34,351 nucleotides of DNA from NCBI RefSeq assembly GCF_000372725.1, contig NW_005201338.1:1-34351 (forward strand). The letters run 5' to 3'. The position numbers and the translations under genes are program-made. The notes under the pieces are model-generated. The model was not told the DNA's origin. It saw only the letters and a list, made by a program, of their open reading frames with translations, and did no database searches. Source of the DNA: Emiliania huxleyi CCMP1516 (taxonomy: Eukaryota). Of the stretch, positions 1-29,084 are shown one piece after another (the first letter of the stretch is position 1; every line of letters begins with the position of its first letter).

Positions 1-912
1 AACCCTAACCCTAACCCTAACCCTAACCCTAACCCTAACCCTAACCCTAACCCTAACCCTAACCCTAACCCTAACCCTAACCCTAACCCTAACCCTAACC
101 CTAACCCTAACCCTAACCCTAACCCTAACCCTAACCCTAACCCTAACCCTAACCCTAACCCTAACCCTAACCCTAACCCTAACCCTAACCCTAACCCTAA
201 CCCTAACCCTAACCCTAACCCTAACCCCAACCCTAACCCTAACCCTAACCCTAACCCTAACCCTAACCCTAACCCTAACCCTAACCCTAACCCTAACCCT
301 AACCCTAACCCCAACCCTAACCCTAATTCTAACCCTAACCCTAACCCTAACCCTAACCCTAACCCTAACCCTAACCCTAACCCTAACCCTAACCCTAACC
401 CTAACCCTAACCCTAACCCTAACCCTAACCCTAACCCTAACCCTAACCCTAACCCTAACCCTAACCCTAACCCTAACCCTAACCCTAACCCTAACCCTAA
501 CCCTAACCCTAACCCTAACCCTAACCCTAACCCTAACCCTAACCCTAACCCTAACCCTAACCCTAACCCTAACCCTAACCCTAACCCTAACCCTAACCCT
601 AACCCTAACCCTAACCCTAACCCTAACCCTAACCCTAACCCTAACCCTAACCCTAACCCTAACCCTAACCCTAACCCTAACCCTAACCCTAACCCTAACC
701 CTAACCCTAACCCTAACCCTAACCCTAACCCTAACCCTAACCCTAACCCTAACCCTAACCCTAACCCTAACCCTAACCCTAACCCTAACCCTAACCCTAA
801 CCCTAACCCTAACCCTAACCCTAACCCTAACCCTAACCCTAACCCTAGCCCGAACTAACCCAAACCCTAACCCTAACCCTAACCCTAACCCTAACCCTAA
901 CCCTAACCCTAA
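1..912 (+). repeat. Telomere, (CCCTAA)n = TTAGGG-type, C-rich strand; left chromosome end
   Basis: About 150 near-perfect CCCTAA units from base 1. A few variants occur (CCCCAA, TTCTAA near 325, a degenerate patch at ~845-865). The array ends at 912 before gtggatcc. Confidence 0.99.
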
Positions 913-19755: not shown

Positions 19756-22461
19756 CTAAGCGTCCCAGTCCTCGTCGGACGACTCGTCCGAGTCGCCAGC
19801 GAGCGCCGCGCGCCGCGCGAGGATCGCGGCAACCTACTCGCGCCCCACGCGGTGAGGGACCCGGGCGGGAGAGGCTGAGAGGTGGGGCGGTGGCGGCGCG
19901 GGCGGGGACGCACCGACACGCCCCCAAAGCCAACGCCCGCCGCCGCGGCCGCCGCCGGGGGCTTGGCACGCTGCTCTGACGTCACCTTGCGCAAATGCAC
20001 GGCGCCACCGCGGATGGCCGCCATGAGGTCTGAGCGCGCCTGCGAGGGGGGCGGGCGGGCGGGGCAAGCGTCCGTGAGCGCCAAGCTCGCGGACGTCGCA
20101 GCCGCTCAGGCGGCCGCACGTCGGTGCCGCCCGAGGCCGGCGCCTCCCGCTCCGGCCGCTCCGCAGCCTTCCGCAGCGTCGTGCCGCCGCGAATGGCCGC
20201 GAAGAGCGCATCGGCTCCAGAGGCAGCCGGCGGCGGCGGCGCGGCGGCCGCGGCCGCGGCCGGCCGCAGCTTTGCGCCGCCCCGAATGGCCGAGAAGAGC
20301 GCGTCGGCGCCCGCAGCTTGCGGAGGCGGAGGCGGCGGCGGCGGCGGCGGCGGCGGCGCTCCCGGCGCAACTGGCGGCGGCGGCGGCGGCGCGAGCGGCG
20401 GCGGCGCGAGCGGCGGCGGCGCGAACGGCGGCGGCGCGGGTGGCGGAGGCGCGGGCGGCGTCGTGGCTGCAACCGGTGCACGTGGAGTTGCGGATGGCGG
20501 CGGGGGAGCCCGCGGCGGCGGCGGCGGAGGCCGTGCCGTCCCAGTATGGGCCGGGGGCGGCGGTGGCTTTGGCAGCTGTGCCGGCGGCGGTGGCCTAACA
20601 GCATTCATTACAGTGATGCGATCGTGTCGGGAGTGGCGTCTGCGAGACTCCCAGCGGCTGCCTCTTTGAGGCTCCGGGCGGCGGCCTCGCAGGTGGCGGC
20701 TGGCTGGGCGGGGGCGGCTTGCTGGGCGGCGGCGGCGGCTCGCCCCCCGACAGGGCTGGAGGGCCTAGGGTTAGGGGTAGGGTTAGGGTTAGGGTTAGGC
20801 TCGCCCCCCGACAGGGCTGGAGGGCCTAGGGTTAGGGGTAGGGGTAGGGTTAGGGTTAGGCTCGCCCCCCGACAGGGCTGGAGGGCCTAGGGTTAGGGGT
20901 AGGGGTAGGGTTAGGGTTAGGCTCGCCCCCCGACAGGGCTGGAGGGCCTAGGGTTAGGGGTAGGGTTAGGGTTAGGGTTAGGCTCGCCCCCCGACAGGGC
21001 TGGAGGGCCTAGGGTTAGGGGTAGGGTTAGGGTTAGGGTTAGGCTCGCCCCCCGACAGGGCTGGAGGGCCTAGGGTTAGGGGTAGGGGTAGGGGTAGGCT
21101 CGCCCCCCGACAGGGCTGGAGGGCCTCCGAGCGGCGGCGGCGGCGGCTGCTGCGGCGGCGGCGCTGCGCCTCCGCGCGAGAAGGAAGCCGCGCCCGCGGC
21201 CGGCAAGCCCATCTGCTCCTCGAAGGTCATGAACTTTTTGCGCTGCACGCGCTTGGCCTTGCGGTCGACGGAAGCAGAGCCGACCTGCGGCGGCCGTCGG
21301 GCAAGCTTGACGCGCATGTTGCGTGTGCGTATGCTCGAGGCATCTCTTACGAATCCGATTGTCAGCTGCGGAGGTCGCGCGCGCGTGTGGCCTTGGCACT
21401 GGGCGGGCGCGCCTGCGCCGGGCGAGCGCTCCGCCTCGCCGCGCGCCTCGCCTTGCGCTCGTCGAGCAGCCGCCGCCGACGCGCCTGCAGCTCGCGCGCG
21501 CGTGTGCGGCGCACATCCTTTCGCAAACCGTTTGTGCGCGCGCGCGGCGGGGAGGGAGCCCGTCCGCCCTCAGCCGCTCTCGACGGGTGTCCGGCCGACA
21601 GTGCGGGCGCGAGGAGGCGGGGCGGGCGCAGGTGGAGGGGTTTGGCTGTGCGCCCCACGCCTCCTCCTCGGCAATCCACTGCTTGTGGAAAAAGTGCGGG
21701 TCCGAGAAGCCGTCGGCGCAAGACGGAGATATGCCGCACGCCGCGTAGATCTCGCGCAAGTGCACGTCCTCCTCTGCCGGCGGCGGCGCCAGCGCGTCGA
21801 GCCGCTGCAGCGCCGGCGGGGGCCGTGCCCGCTCCAAGGCGGCCACGACCCAAGGAGGCCTCGACGCCGCAGAGAAGAGGTGGCCGCTGCCTTCGGCGGG
21901 CGCGGCTCGGTAGTCGAGGCCGGTGCCCGCGTCGCACAGCTCCGTCGTCTCCTCGGGCGGCGCCGCAGACAGCGCGTCGTCCACCTACAGCTGGGCGCCC
22001 TTTCTGCATCCCGCACCACCTTTTGCATCCCGGAGAGGGGGCGGCGCGGGGGGGAGGTGCGGAGTCGCGCCTGCGCCAGCCGCTCGGTCACCCCGACGAG
22101 GCGGCCTCGGAGCGTGCCGAGCTGCTCGGAGCTCCGCGCCACCTGGCAGGTGGTTGAGCGGGTGAGCGATTGTCTGCGCGTGAATGACTGACTGCGGACG
22201 ACTCGCCACCTCTTCTCCGAGAGAGTCGAATAGGTCCGCCGCGACCGTGGAGAGCTGGCCGAGCTGCGATGGGAGGCGGCACGGGTGCGTGTGTGAGATT
22301 CGGTCCGGATCCGCAGAGGCAGCGGCAAGGCGGCCGGCCTGGTTGAGCAGGCCAACCATAGTCGCCATGGAGACGTCGCCCAGAAGCTCCTCTGGCGGCG
22401 AGCGGCGAAACAGGGCGTTGGCCCCAGGTGACGACAACGGGTCATTCAGGCTGATGGACAT
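19756..22461 (-). CDS. SCAR: SCAR/WAVE-family Arp2/3 nucleation-promoting factor, ~528 aa, 10 predicted exons: 22461-22339, 22263-22210, 22142-22071, 21984-21661, 21484-21413, 21284-21125, 20764-20662, 20594-20120, 20039-19914, 19833-19756
   Basis: WAVE-homology domain (TMVGLLNQLGQLSTVAADLFDSL; LFSAASRP...PPPALQRLD...FSDPHFFHKQW), a basic region and poly-Pro. Three WH2 motifs (ADALFSAIRGGAKLR, ADALFAAIRGGTTLRK, RSDLMAAIRGGAVHLRKV). C/A tail VAAILARRAALAGDSDESSDEDWDA*. The exon lengths sum to 1587 nt, in frame. Confidence 0.85.
20737..21126. repeat. Tandem array inside SCAR/WAVE: 7 copies of a 30-bp exon-derived block alternating with 6 telomeric TTAGGG/GTAGGG blocks (5 x 61 bp + 1 x 55 bp = 360 bp)
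   Basis: Block ggctcgccccccgacagggctggagggcct starts at 20737, 20798, 20859, 20920, 20981, 21042 and 21097. Confidence 0.97.
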
Positions 22462-22927: not shown

Positions 22928-23780
22928 ACAATACCAAACAACTCTAACACTCACACGTCATTTGGGGCCTGGAGCCCCTGCACAATGATGTTTATGGTGC
23001 CCTGTTCACGCGCGCGCGAGACGTGCAGACAGGGTTGCCAGGTGAGAGCGAATGGCGCGGCGGTTCACGCCTCGCACAACAGAGAGAGAGATGCGCTCTG
23101 CATGGTGGGACATAAAAGAGAGCGAGTACTTGGGCGAGTAGGCCGTGCGGTCAACGCTGCCGCGCGCGACTTTGCGCGCGAGGCGGCGCAGCTTGAGAAC
23201 GGCGGTGGGCGAGAAGCCGCCGCCGAACGTCTCGTGGAGCAGCAGGTCAATACCAAACAACTCTAACACTCACACGTCATTTGGGGCCTGGAGCCCTGTT
23301 CACGCGCGCGCGAGACGTGTTGTTTTGCTAATTAGTGAGCTCGATTCACACAACAAATTGGAAGTTGGCAGGGACTGGCGCGCGTCCTCCCATCCCTCCC
23401 TTGGGTTGTGTGTTTTCTTTCTTTTTTTTGGCGCGCACTGGCACTAACACAGGTACACCACGCAAAAAGAATTCTGCGTTGGGACTGACTGGCACTACAT
23501 ATACTCGTAACACAAAAACAACACTAACCCTAGCGTCGACCGCACGGCCTACTCGCCCAAGTACTCGCTCTCTTTCATGTCCCACCATGCAGAGCGCATC
23601 TCTCTCTCTGTTGTGCGAGGCGTGAACCGCGCCATTCGCTCTCACCTGGCAACCCTGTCTGCACGTCTCGCGCGCGCGTGAACAGGGCACTCTTCCGTTG
23701 AAAATCTGTTTTCCACCAACCTTTAATCCAGGGCTCCAGGCCCCAAATGACGTGTGAGTGTTAGAGTTGTTTGGTATTGT
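22928..23780. mobile_element. Foldback/MITE-like element with ~230-bp interrupted inverted arms
   Basis: 22928-22980 is inverted at 23729-23780. 22997-23158 is inverted at 23532-23690, near-identical. A third partial direct copy lies at 23248-23319. No TSD or transposase seen. Confidence 0.7.
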
Positions 23781-24902: not shown

Positions 24903-27900
24903 TCACCAGAGCAGGATTGAGAACCCGCGCGGCCGCGACAGCGGGCCCGCCGACCAGCTGCTTGAGTCCTCCTCCTCCTCCGCCTCGGCGCGGCCCGAGC
25001 GCCGCACGATGTAGTGCGCCAGATAGCCGCCGATCGGGAGGCCCACGACGAAGCCGATGAAGCCGGCCGTCGTGACGAACGGCACGAGGATGGCGGGCAC
25101 GGGGTCGACGAGCAGCACGATGATGCCCGTGAGGCCGGCGGCCACGGCGGAGCAAAAGGCCAGCGTGAGTGTGAACGCGAGGAAGGCCAGGATGACCCTG
25201 CGGCCCGTGGCGCCGCGGGGCGTCGGCGGCGTCGTGGCGTCGGGCCTCGTCGCCAGCAGCTTGAAGAGAGCGTAGTAGGAGCGCTTGGGCAGGCTCACCA
25301 GCACCTCGATGAGCAAGCCGGCCGCGAGCAGGAAGACAAGCAGGCGGATAGCGGCGAGCTTGAGCACAGAGTCGACGCCGACCATGTAGTGCAAGCACCA
25401 CGTCGCGCGCCAGAGGATGGCGAAGATGCCCAGGATGGCGCAGATCATCGGGCCCTGCGCTCCGGTGGCGAGAGAGACGTAGGCGAGGAGGAACGGGCCG
25501 ATCCCGACAAAGACAGCCCACCGCCACGGGTCGTCATTGTACGGGCAGCCGGTCGCGGCGAGCGCGCCGACGAGCTGCACAGAGGCGGCGGTGGCGAGCA
25601 GCAGCCTGTAGGAGCGTGGCAAGTGTCCGCCCGCCAAGGGCTGCTGCGTCGTGCGCGAGTGGCGGCGGATCTGGAGGAGCGACACCGCCGTCATGGCGAG
25701 CGTCGTCATCACCGCCGAGCAGAGCACGACGTAGACGGTCTGCGCGCGAGACCGCCAGATGCAAGGGTGCCACAAGGAGAGCCAGACCGCCGCGTCGCCG
25801 CCCTCGGCGGACACGCCGCCGGGACAGAACTCCTTGTGGTAGTCGTCGCACGGCACCACGCACACGAGCAGCCGCTGCCCCGCCACGCCGCGAGGGTGCC
25901 GGATGCGCAGCCGCGAGCTCCCCACCTGCTCGATGTGCCCAAGGGAGGCGGGCGCGTCCGCCGCACCCGGTGCCGCCTCCTCGGCCGCGAGTCTCCTCGC
26001 GCCCGAAGCCGCACCCGCCGCAGCAGCCGTCTGGTCGAGGTACTCGCGCGGCTCCAGCTTCGACACGAGAACGGCAAACCCGTCCGGAAAGTGGAGCGGG
26101 GCGGCGAGGTGGACCTCGGTGGTGCGCCCCTCGTCCGAGTCGGCGTCGGCCGCCTCGTACTCGAGGACCATCACTCGCCACCCGGCGCTCCACACCATGA
26201 GCAGCGGCCGCCCTGCGACGGCCTGCGCGAACGGCGTGGCGATGACGCGCAGCTTCTCCTCGGCGAGGAGCCCGTCCTTCGGGTAGAGGGAGAAGCCGCC
26301 GCCGGACGACGTGTGGTCCTCGAAGTTCTTGTACTGCCAATAGAAGCGCGAGACCAGAAACTCGTCGGCGACGGTGCCGGCGCGCGCAATCTCCGCGAGG
26401 CAGGCCGAGCCGTGCCGGTCCGCGCAGTCGGCGCCGGTCGATCCGAGCGAGCCGTACTCGGAGAGCAGCGAGCCGCTGCGCTGCTGCTTGGCCGAGAAGT
26501 CCTGCACCGCGAAGAGGTGGCGGTGGTAGATCGCGCACAAGAAGGAGAGGTGCGGAGTCACGTTCGGCGCCCACCAGCAGTACGAGTGCCACGAGAAGGC
26601 CTCGCGCGACTCGTCCGGCTCGTCCGGCTCGAGCCGCTCGCCCAAGAAGCCAGACGACCACACGTCCCACATGACCGGCTCGTACGCCACGATGTGCCGC
26701 TTATTGACGGCGCGGATGGCGGCGACCACGTGCCGGTAAAAGGGCAGCAGCAGGTCCCTTTCGGCGGCGGGCGAGTTGAACCACCAAGACATGAAGAGGG
26801 AGTAGTTACCGGGGTCATTGGTGTCGCCGGGCCACGGCTCGTTCATGAGCTCGAGCGCGAGCACCGCCGGCTCGTCCGCCAGCGCCTCGGCGACGTGGGC
26901 CCAGTGCTCCTCGAAGGCGCGTCGGACGCCGCCGCCGTCCGTGTACAGCGCCTGCGCCGTCTTCGTCTGCGAGTTTGTGCTGTAGTACTCGAAAAAGTCG
27001 CGGTTCGTGCACTCCTTCAGCTGCGGGTACAGCCCCGCAGCGTCGAGCAACTTGAAAACCTCGGTCGAAGTCTGGGCATCTCCAGCCAGCTCGACGGCGC
27101 ACCAGTCGCCCCTCTGCCACGCAACGGAGCCGCCAATTCTGCGGATCGCCGGGGGGGTCGGAGGCGTCGGCGAAGGGGGCGATGGCAGAGGCGTTGGCGA
27201 CGGCAGCGGCGGCGACGGCAGCGGCGGCGACGGCAGCGGCGGCGACGGCAGCGGCGGCGACGGCAGCGGCGGCGACGGCAGCGGCGGCGACGGCAGCGGC
27301 GGCGCCGGCAGCGGCGGCGACGGCAGCGGCGGCGACGGCAGCGGCGGCGACGGCAGCGGCACGGGCAGGGGTGCCGCCGCCACGCAGCAGTGATACCCGT
27401 CGCAAGCGACTCGCGGGCAGCCTGCCGCCTCATAGTCCGTCATGCAGCAAGCCTGGCCGGGGCCGCAATAGTCATCGCACGGCCCCGCCGCGCCGCCACA
27501 CCCGTCCCAGCAGTTTGCAGGCTCGCTGGGCGATGTCGCCGGCGGAGGAGGCGGCACCGGAGACGGGAACGGCGGGACAGCGAGAGGCGCTGGTGGTGGC
27601 GCAGGCAACGGTGAAGGTGCCGCCGGGACGCAGCAGTGATACCCGTCGCAAGCGACTCGCGGGCAGCCTGCCGCCTCATAGTCCGTCTTGCAGCAAGCCT
27701 GGCCGGGGCCGCAATAGTCATCGCACGGCCCCGCCGCGCCGCCACACCCGTCCCAGCAGTTTGCAGGCTCGCTGGGGGGCGGTGATGGCGGAGGAGGCGG
27801 CACCGGAGACGGCGGCGACTCCGGAGAAGGGGGCATGGGCGGTGGCGGAGGCAGAGGCTCCGGTCTAGCCGGCGGCTCTGGTGCAGGAACGCAGCAGTGA

Positions 27901-29084
27901 TACCCGTCGCAAGCGACTCGCGGGCAGCCAGCCGCCTCGTAGTCCGTCTTGCAGCAAGCCTGGCCGGGGCCGCAATAGTCATCGCACGGCCCCGCCACGC
28001 CGCCACACCCGTCCCAGCAGTTTGCAGGCTCGCTGGGGGGCGGTGATGGCGGCTCGGCGCTGCCGTCTCCCCACGGGTTCCAGCCACGACGGGAGTTGAC
28101 TTCCTCGGTCCCGATGTCAAAGAATGCCGCCGGCTCCAGACCCAGGAGTGGAGAGGGGAAATCGCCAAAGGGCGGCGGCTGGCTGGTGTTGCGCAGCGCG
28201 TCGTCGACGGCCCAGTCGGGCATACCTGCGAGGAGTGGCGCATCGGTCGCACAGGCGGGGCGCGCGAGGCAAACAGTGTGACCCAGCCGCAGGCGGAGCG
28301 AGCGCGCCGTTGCCACAAAAGCGGCGCGAGAGCACGTCCGAGTGGAAGTCGATGACAACGTGAATGCCTGGACGAGCGGGCAGCGGCGTAAGGTCTTGTC
28401 AGTACGAGCCGATTGAGCACACGAAAAAACGCGGCGGCGGGAGGCGGGCACCATGCTCCTCGCACACCGTCACAATCTCCTGCACCCTCTTGATGTAGCC
28501 CGGGTCCGCTACGCCGCGCCGCGCCGGAAAGGTTCCCGCCCAGAGGACGCCTATCGTTGGGAGCAACGCTTCGCTTGGCGTCGGCCGGGCCATGGCGAAG
28601 CCGCGCGCGCTGCTGCCGGCACCCAAGCGGATCGCGTTGAACCCCCACGCCGACAGGTTGGCGGCATCGGCCTCGCCGAACGACGTCTCCGCGTCCCATT
28701 CGCCCGCGTCGGGAAGGTGCGGCGCCGTCTTGAAGACCACGTTGAGCCCGTGAAAGAGCCGCACACGGCCATCCTCATCAACAAAGTGCGCCGTCGCGGG
28801 GTCCGAGCGGATCCACTGCGCCTTTCGGGACGCCTAGGGAACGATGCGACGGTGACGGAGGCTCGCCCTTTTGCATCCACCCCAGCGTGATCCCGCGCCG
28901 GCGGGGTGCCAGTGACCACAGCCTTTGGCCGCAGGGCGTACGAGTCGAAGGCAAAGAGGTAGAGGAGCGGAGCGCCCAAGCCGGCGCCGGCGGCGAGGAT
29001 CAATGCAACGCAGACGTGACCCGTCCGCAGCGTGTTTGACGACGAGGCGGGCGCTGTCTCGGCGGCCCCAGGAGTGGTGAACAT
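24903..29084 (-). CDS. GH5 endoglycoceramidase-like glycoside hydrolase with N-terminal TM, internal Cys-rich/Pro-rich insertion and C-terminal multi-TM region; introns ~28880-28834 (uncertain), 28622-28551, 28451-28368, 28307-28226 (GC-AG)
   Basis: After splicing: HFVDEDGRVRLFHGLNVVFK, WGFNAIRLGVLWAG, GIHVVIDFHSDVLSRRFCGNGMPDW, acid/base ELMNEPWPG, FSWHSYC, nucleophile LLSEYG, FYWQYK, PFAQAVAGRP (EGCase C-terminal beta domain). Confidence 0.85.
27199..27360 (-). repeat. Coding 15-bp minisatellite (PSPPL)n, ~11 copies
   Basis: (gacggcagcggcggc)n on the + strand. Confidence 0.9.
27381..28031 (-). repeat. Three near-identical 144-bp coding repeats, each a 48-aa 10-Cys module (27888-28031, 27627-27770, 27381-27524)
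   Basis: EPANCWDGCGG(V/A)AGPCDDYCGPGQACC(K/M)TDYEAAGCPRVACDGYHCCV x3, separated by Pro-rich linkers. Confidence 0.95.

What the first reader, a model, noticed from the sequence alone, without database searches (positions are those of the whole stretch)
20737..21126. Intron built from telomeric repeats plus duplicated exon sequence inside SCAR/WAVE
Seen: on the gene's sense (-) strand the 360-bp array reads exon..GGAG|GCCCTCCAGCCCTGTCGGGGG GCGAG CCTAACCCTAACCCTAACCCTACCCCTAACCCTAG|GCCCTCC.., six times over. Unspliced, the frame stops at TAA (21039), yet the downstream WH2/C/A exons are intact, so the array should be spliced out. Each telomeric block is C-rich on the sense strand, carries CTAAC (branch-point consensus) and ends in CCCTAG, a ready 3' splice site. 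Excising 21124-20765 (GC..AG, exactly 360 nt) restores a single GPPALSGGEP through a duplicated AG|GC proto-splice site. Inference: telomeric DNA was added at an internal break with duplication of the flanking exon and then tandemly amplified, and GC-donor tolerance turned it into a working intron. This would be a telomere-repeat-driven route of intron gain.
Basis: partly seen in the sequence, partly recalled or inferred. Interest (0 to 1): 0.9.

Follow-up and report, generated by a model that had tools for sequence, protein, structure and literature searches.

The report
Stacked telomere-repeat intron in algal gene
An actin-regulator gene of a marine alga is interrupted by six stacked copies of a short piece of its own coding sequence plus chromosome-end (telomere) repeats, which is likely spliced out as a newly made intron, suggesting that patching DNA breaks with telomere repeats can create introns.

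Summary
The array is real: seven identical 30-bp copies of exon sequence, each beginning with AG|GC, separate six telomere-like tracts (units 55 + 5x61 = 360 nt) in a SCAR/WAVE gene. Three independent database sequences carry the tract, so it is no assembly artefact; no empty allele was found. Splicing was not observed: no reads were available and no transcript crosses the site. Indirect support: two spliced transcripts show expression, 5 of 5 confirmed donors are AG|GY (4 GC), and 7 of 8 allelic differences lie in introns (p=0.008). Corrections: the acceptor AG comes from the duplicated exon, not the telomere; 360 being a multiple of three is irrelevant, as each unit is a self-regenerating GC-AG module; block 1 lacks a usable CTAAC. 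In GC-rich marine contigs such tracts are common (10 of 39 with flanking duplications, null 0.6; one splits METTL3 seamlessly) with only about 2:1 C-rich-sense bias (35 vs 16). The ingredients are known (telomeric insertions at breaks; intron gain by duplication); their union was not found in print. The scan noted single-unit cases before on other DNA. New variant of a known kind.

The parts
1..912 (+). Terminal telomere (CCCTAA)n of this chromosome arm; defines the organism's repeat. The internal tracts are in the opposite orientation (G-rich on +).
   Evidence: 145 CCCTAA, 0 CCCTAC
21125..22461 (-). SCAR/WAVE exons 1-6 (22461-22339, 22263-22210, 22142-22071, 21984-21661, 21484-21413, 21284-21125) with five introns of 75, 67, 86, 176, 128 nt, all with AG|GY donors (4 GC, 1 GT)
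   Evidence: spliced-transcript proteins P0001 and P0156 mapped to the window
21097..21126 (-). First copy of the 30-bp duplicated exon segment; starts with AG|GC, proposed donor at 21124
20765..21124 (-). Proposed 360-nt GC-AG intron = six units (21124-21070, 21069-21009, 21008-20948, 20947-20887, 20886-20826, 20825-20765), each 28 nt exon copy + 27/33 nt telomere-like block ending in TAG; splicing inferred
21039..21041 (-). First in-frame stop (TAA) if the array is retained: codon 297 of about 520
20767..20797 (-). Telomeric core of unit 6 (31 nt); CTAAC branch-like A at -19, -25, -31 from the acceptor
20737..20766 (-). Last copy of the 30-bp duplicated segment; supplies the acceptor AG (20766-20765) and the resumed exon
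19756..20764 (-). Predicted downstream exons (20764-20662, 20594-20144, 20039-19914, 19833-19756): proline-rich region, three WH2-like repeats, central and acidic tail; three further introns are inferred, not seen in a transcript
   Evidence: stop-free 520-aa model; C-terminus matches homologue P0013 by eye

Best explanation
A staggered DNA break in exon sequence of this SCAR/WAVE gene was likely patched with about five telomere repeats, leaving the 30-bp duplication seen on both sides; the 61-bp unit was then likely amplified to six copies, and the whole 360 nt is predicted to be spliced out as a GC-AG intron. The duplicated AG|GC gives both the donor (first copy) and the acceptor (last copy); the telomeric tract would supply a branch point (CTAAC), spacing and stop codons. 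Because every internal junction is again AG|GC, removing any number of units from the 5' end regenerates the same donor, so copy number should be neutral and splicing could be one-step or stepwise (recursive-like). Shown: anatomy, expression and donor usage of the gene, presence of the tract in other alleles. Inferred: splicing, donor choice, branch point, telomerase, order of events.
For: Perfect 30-bp flanking duplication with 1 nt (T) and 2 nt (GG) in register with the repeat at the two junctions, the pattern described for telomeric insertions at breaks (PMC2246262; PMC7215372). Retention stops the protein at codon 297, before the WH2/central/acidic end; excision gives a stop-free 520-aa model. 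Two spliced transcript proteins (P0001, P0156) show expression; 5 of 5 confirmed donors are AG|GY, 4 GC. All 3 database sequences that reach the site (P0002, P0003, P0020) carry the tract, with variants differing from the window. 7 of 8 distinct allelic differences upstream of the array are intronic against 40% expected, p=0.008, and one allele has a substitution in the second exon copy, as expected for relaxed intronic DNA. Regenerated donor after removing 1-6 units. Class evidence: 10 of 39 usable marine tracts have near-exact flanking duplications of 12 nt or more, null mean 0.57, max 2; exact 10 nt or more in 5 of 39, null 0.035; in L150 the tract separates METTL3 residues 102-157 from 156-184.
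Against: No transcript crossing the array was found: P0001 turns chimeric just before it, P0156 ends before it, and searches with the adjacent and downstream exons gave none. No empty allele, so the gain is undated. GCCCTC is a poor match to the usual donor consensus, and two other open-frame donors exist (21103, 21169). Single units (55/61 nt) are shorter than the shortest confirmed intron here (67 nt). Intron retention is frequent in E. huxleyi (PMC4028052) and P0156 itself retains intron 4. Allelic differences were read from protein translations in non-coding frames, which hide some substitutions, and number only 8. Strand bias in other organisms is modest. Nothing here separates telomerase from capture or template switching of telomeric DNA.
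Confidence: 0.62

Rival explanations
1. The array is spliced, but from another donor: G|GCGAG at 21103, as one 339-nt intron or as six 34/40-nt mini-introns with 21-nt micro-exons that add proline/glycine repeats, or GAG|GCGCAG at 21169 (405 nt).
For: All give open frames (the micro-exon variant follows from 21 being a multiple of three). GCGAG/GCGCAG resemble the intronic side of confirmed donors 3-5. In several marine look-alikes the frame-restoring donor lies inside the duplicated copy or at the tract start (L075, L086, L077).
Against: The 21103 donor lacks the exonic AG found in 5 of 5 confirmed donors; 34-40 nt is far below the 67-176 nt seen here; P0001 reads through 21169 by at least 8 gene-specific bases before its chimeric join.
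Confidence: 0.18
2. The insertion is not efficiently spliced: it is a disruptive mutation that truncates SCAR/WAVE (null or N-terminal-only product), tolerated because the gene is dispensable or duplicated.
For: No spanning transcript; a recent insertion would leave downstream exons intact whether or not it is spliced; a second gene copy could not be looked for (no genome held).
Against: The tract is in 4 of 4 haplotype-like sequences that reach the site and has diverged among them, while exons 1-5 show no visible change and introns show 7; the gene is transcribed and spliced upstream.
Confidence: 0.14
3. Telomere-like DNA did not create the intron; an older intron or plain tandem duplication existed first and was overwritten or filled by CCCTAA repeats through slippage.
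For: In other marine contigs many tracts have no duplication (29 of 39), and L076/L102 share an intron position with different tracts, so tracts turn over within introns.
Against: Here the interval holds nothing but perfect exon duplicate and telomere repeat; no seed for CCCTAA slippage lies in the flanks and no other internal tract of two perfect units occurs in the remaining 33 kb.
Confidence: 0.06

Closest known systems
Short interstitial telomeric sequences inserted during double-strand-break repair (Nergadze et al. 2007, PMC2246262; Santagostino et al. 2020, PMC7215372; passages seen; author names recalled)
   Same: Short telomeric tract at an internal site, direct duplication of the target, nucleotides in register with the repeat at the junction.
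   Different: Duplication accompanies only 4.5-16% of mammalian cases; none of the human ones lies in a coding exon and an effect on splicing is left as an open question there. Here the insertion is in exon sequence, tandemly amplified and likely an intron.
Intron gain by tandem duplication of an AGGT/AGGY proto-splice site (Rogers model; ATP2A1, PMC3265369, abstract seen; fission-yeast multi-copy cases as cited in the introduction of PMC4974935)
   Same: Duplicated exon segment gives donor and acceptor, protein unchanged, several tandem copies inside one intron.
   Different: Each unit carries foreign telomeric filler that would give the branch point; the donor is GC.
Intron gain during double-strand-break repair in Daphnia (as summarised in PMC3488318, passages seen, and PMC4974935)
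   Same: New introns flanked by short repeats.
   Different: There the source of the filler was found for 1 of 21 introns; here it is evident.
Pervasive interstitial telomeric tracts in the coccolithophore Calcidiscus leptoporus (PMC13518057; passages of text and supplement seen)
   Same: Many internal TTAGGG tracts in an intron-rich haptophyte genome with many GC-AG junctions.
   Different: The passages seen do not place the tracts in introns or link them to intron gain.

Membership tests
SCAR/WAVE family (host gene) | N-terminal SCAR homology domain, basic and proline-rich regions, WH2-central-acidic end | tested here: met
   Profile of P0001 and 24 relatives hits WAVE1 at E=1.6e-42; WH2 in 9 of 14 relatives scanned; the Pfam copy on hand gave no hit to P0001 or the window's exons
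Spliceosomal GC-AG intron | GC donor and AG acceptor whose excision restores the frame | tested here: met
Spliceosomal GC-AG intron | Removed from mature mRNA | tested here: inconclusive
   No transcript-derived protein crosses the site; read mapping was not available
Spliceosomal GC-AG intron | Branch point use | not testable with these tools
   CTAAC at -19, -25, -31 in unit 6 is a motif match only
Short interstitial telomeric insertion at a repaired break | Host telomere repeat at an internal site with a modified (duplicated) target and junction bases in register | tested here: met
Short interstitial telomeric insertion at a repaired break | Empty orthologous or allelic site | tested here: inconclusive
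   0 empty of 3 outside sequences reaching the site; more distant homologues are not alignable there; no locus
Intron gain by tandem duplication of a proto-splice site | Both splice sites derive from copies of one exonic AG|GY segment | tested here: met
   conditional on donor 21124 being the one used
Recursive splicing (zero-length exons) | Stepwise intermediates at AG|GY ratchet points | not testable with these tools
   Sequence permits it; intermediates need nascent-RNA or lariat reads

The most novel reading that the evidence does not exclude
Telomerase-type patching of staggered breaks is an active, general source of spliceosomal introns in GC-tolerant marine algae: the duplicated AG|GC plus telomeric filler is a self-contained intron module that can stack into a recursively spliced array (this locus), and in some lineages it has built a large share of all introns (134 further tracts in 89 kb of flanks, about 1.5 per kb).
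Probability: 0.45. Interest if true: 0.85.

Novelty: new variant of a known kind. Interest (0 to 1): 0.63.

Why it matters
The source of most newly gained introns is unknown. Here the filler has an obvious source (the host telomere repeat) and the splice sites an obvious origin (a duplicated exon segment), so the break-repair model of intron gain becomes directly testable with existing algal genomes and transcriptomes. The stacked units also give a natural test of whether tiny tandem introns with no exon between them are removed in one step or recursively. The frequency of such tracts in marine eukaryote contigs suggests that internal telomeric repeats reported as an assembly nuisance in haptophytes may largely be introns.

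Tried and rejected
No whole genome is held, so no genome-wide scan or paralogue search in this organism; within the window no other internal tract of two perfect units exists. Read-level evidence could not be obtained, so splicing and raw-read support for six copies stay open. The search for related loci with the adjacent exon found no locus among 598 pattern matches. The viral collection gave 42 loci, mostly repeat arrays or contig ends in AT-richer DNA, uninformative. Search with the downstream WH2 exon gave one distant homologue only. P0001 looked like a spanning transcript but is a chimera with an RBM5-like gene at a shared proline/glutamine run. Assembly artefact rejected for the tract (three outside sequences), though copy number beyond two is not confirmed outside the window. 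RNA folding shows the array is less structured than all 100 shuffles (z=+4.45): no structural role. Exclusive C-rich-sense bias rejected.

Full report
Observation. The window starts with a terminal telomere, (CCCTAA)n at 1-912. At 20737-21126 lies an array of period 61, 6.5 copies, 97% matches. On the minus strand it consists of seven identical 28-nt exon-like copies separated by six telomere-like blocks; units are 55 + 5 x 61 = 360 nt. The duplicated segment is really 30 bp, since it includes the AG before each copy (20737-20766 equals 21097-21126); the telomeric core of the last unit is 31 nt, with one base in register with the repeat at one junction and two at the other. The tract is G-rich on +, opposite to the nearby telomere, so it is not a healed end of this arm. 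Blocks differ: unit 1 has one CTAAC only, 7 nt from the AG; units 2, 3 and 6 have CTAAC at -19, -25 and -31 as well; CCCTAC variants do not occur among 145 terminal repeats, so they arose after insertion or are sequence errors. Retained, the array stops the frame at TAA 21041-21039, codon 297.

Host gene and organism. Protein search with exon 4 returned P0001 and P0002. P0001 and its relative P0156 are translations of spliced transcripts; mapped to the window they fix five introns of 67-176 nt, all with AG|GY donors, four of them GC; P0156 retains intron 4. A profile of P0001 and 24 relatives hits human WAVE1 at E=1.6e-42, the Atlas returns SCAR_helical clusters at 0.94, and 9 of 14 relatives scanned carry WH2; the Pfam copy on hand did not hit P0001 or the window's exons. 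With the array excised and three further, inferred introns the model is a stop-free 520-aa SCAR/WAVE. No call named the organism. About 65% GC, GC donors and TTAGGG telomeres fit Emiliania/Gephyrocapsa huxleyi, for which 56-65% GC donors and frequent intron retention are reported (PMC4028052, passages; telomere motif in 10.1101/2024.05.26.595999, passages, supplements not seen); this is inference.

Is it real, is it spliced? Three outside sequences read from unspliced DNA reach the site and all three carry the tract: P0002 (stop right at block 1, so a different first block), P0003 and P0020 (full-length first block with another variant hexamer, then a second exon copy and a stop). Two units at least are thus confirmed outside this assembly; six copies are not. 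No empty allele was seen. No transcript crosses the array: P0001 becomes chimeric with an RBM5-like gene just before it, and searches gave no spanning sequence; read mapping was not available. Indirectly: among fetched alleles (P0002, P0003, P0005, P0018, P0020, P0006) I count 8 distinct differences upstream of the array, 7 in introns (532 nt) and one in-frame proline/glutamine slippage in exon 6 (805 nt of exons), binomial p=0.008. The count was made by hand from translations in non-coding frames, which hide some substitutions; P0006's one mismatch is a start-codon call and was dropped; P0001 and P0156 printed no rows in that comparison. It indicates that the gene is conserved in haplotypes bearing the array, which is hard to square with a null.

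Which splice sites? Many GY..AG pairs keep the frame open in this GC-rich region; with the AG|GY rule of the confirmed introns and the last TAG acceptor two remain, 21124 (360 nt) and 21169 (405 nt), and P0001 reads through 21169. A donor at 21103 (339 nt, or six 34/40-nt mini-introns) is open-frame but lacks the exonic AG. Two points differ from that reading. The acceptor AG is duplicated exon, so the telomere repeat supplies at most branch point and spacer. And the length need not be a multiple of three: each unit runs GC...TAG, and removing one to six units from the 5' end regenerates the same donor junction, so the array can be removed at once or stepwise and copy number should not matter. 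The RNA is less structured than all 100 shuffles.

Is it a class? A scan of metagenome contigs for a telomeric tract ending in CCCTAG gave 110 loci (about 840 estimated). 76 have GC of 55% or more, 4 of the 110 were redundant, and 39 had clean flanks. Exact adjacent duplications of 10 nt or more occur in 5 of 39 (null mean 0.035), near-exact ones of 12 nt or more in 10 of 39 (null 0.57, max 2), and AG|GY lies at the tract start in 15 of 39 against a 17% background. The 73 non-redundant GC-rich loci hold 134 further tracts in 89 kb, 89 in the same and 45 in the opposite orientation. Of 398 stop-free flank segments, 300 of the 303 with 50 aa or more went to Pfam; leaving out low-complexity families (Trypan_PARP, KRTAP, keratin head, LisH_2, pentapeptide), 13 loci had hits, 8 with the C-rich strand as sense and 5 with the G-rich strand (p=0.58; two hits are below curated cut-offs; L076 and L102 are homologous). 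A codon model trained on this window (29 of 29 held-out pieces right; same sign as Pfam in 11 of 11, one of them marginal) scored 55 loci and called 35 C-rich against 16 G-rich among the 51 clear ones, p=0.011. The sample is conditioned on the search pattern. In L150 a 132-nt GT..AG tract separates METTL3 residues 102-157 from 156-184, so such tracts can be introns in a conserved gene. The organisms of these contigs are unidentified.

What is known. Telomeric insertions at repaired breaks, some with target duplications and most with junction bases in register, are described in mammals (PMC2246262; PMC7215372, which finds none in human coding exons and leaves splicing effects open). Intron gain by duplication of a proto-splice site is shown for ATP2A1 (PMC3265369, abstract) and, with several tandem copies, in fission yeasts (as cited in PMC4974935, introduction). 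Break repair is a proposed route in Daphnia (PMC3488318, passages). Pervasive internal telomeric tracts are reported in Calcidiscus leptoporus without a link to introns in the passages I saw (PMC13518057; figure S5 itself and the rest of the supplement not seen and may bear on this); passages of PMC11347835 and PMC13685798 show no such link. Ten searches of the open-licence library found no paper on introns built from telomere repeats; subscription papers are not covered. This scan has noted single-unit cases on other DNA; those are unchecked notes, used as a lead only.

Verdict. Real feature; likely a young GC-AG intron made by telomeric patching of a staggered break plus tandem amplification (0.62; spliced by some route about 0.8). 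New variant of known kinds; interest 0.63, limited by the lack of a junction read and of an empty allele.

Noticed in passing
window 22209-22143 (-): Intron 2 of the same gene has the same 8 bases around its donor and its acceptor (AG plus six), a possible older duplication-type gain.
   Followed up: no
L150 (match at 304-435 region): A 132-nt telomere-repeat intron inside the METTL3/MT-A70 domain of an unidentified marine eukaryote.
   Followed up: partly
L076 and L102; L067 and L143: Pairs of homologous genes with a telomeric tract at the same position but of different sequence and length: tracts turn over while the intron position stays.
   Followed up: partly
L043-L152, GC-rich subset: About 1.5 further telomeric tracts per kb around the index tracts, suggesting lineages in which a large share of introns are telomere repeats.
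   Followed up: partly
window 22929-23025 and 23248-23319; about 23045-23160 and 23530-23650: Upstream of the gene: perfect 49-bp and 31-bp direct repeats and, by eye, a roughly 110-bp inverted repeat next to a short CTAACCCTAG motif at 23524.
   Followed up: no
window 22795-22786 (-): Two degenerate telomere-like units upstream of the start codon; could be chance.
   Followed up: no
window 24903-28454 (-): Long intron-free GH5 cellulase-like ORF with three cysteine-rich 246-bp repeats and eleven 15-bp proline repeats.
   Followed up: no
P0001: Database protein is a chimera of this SCAR transcript and an RBM5-like gene (P0008), joined at a shared proline/glutamine run; likely an assembly artefact.
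   Followed up: yes
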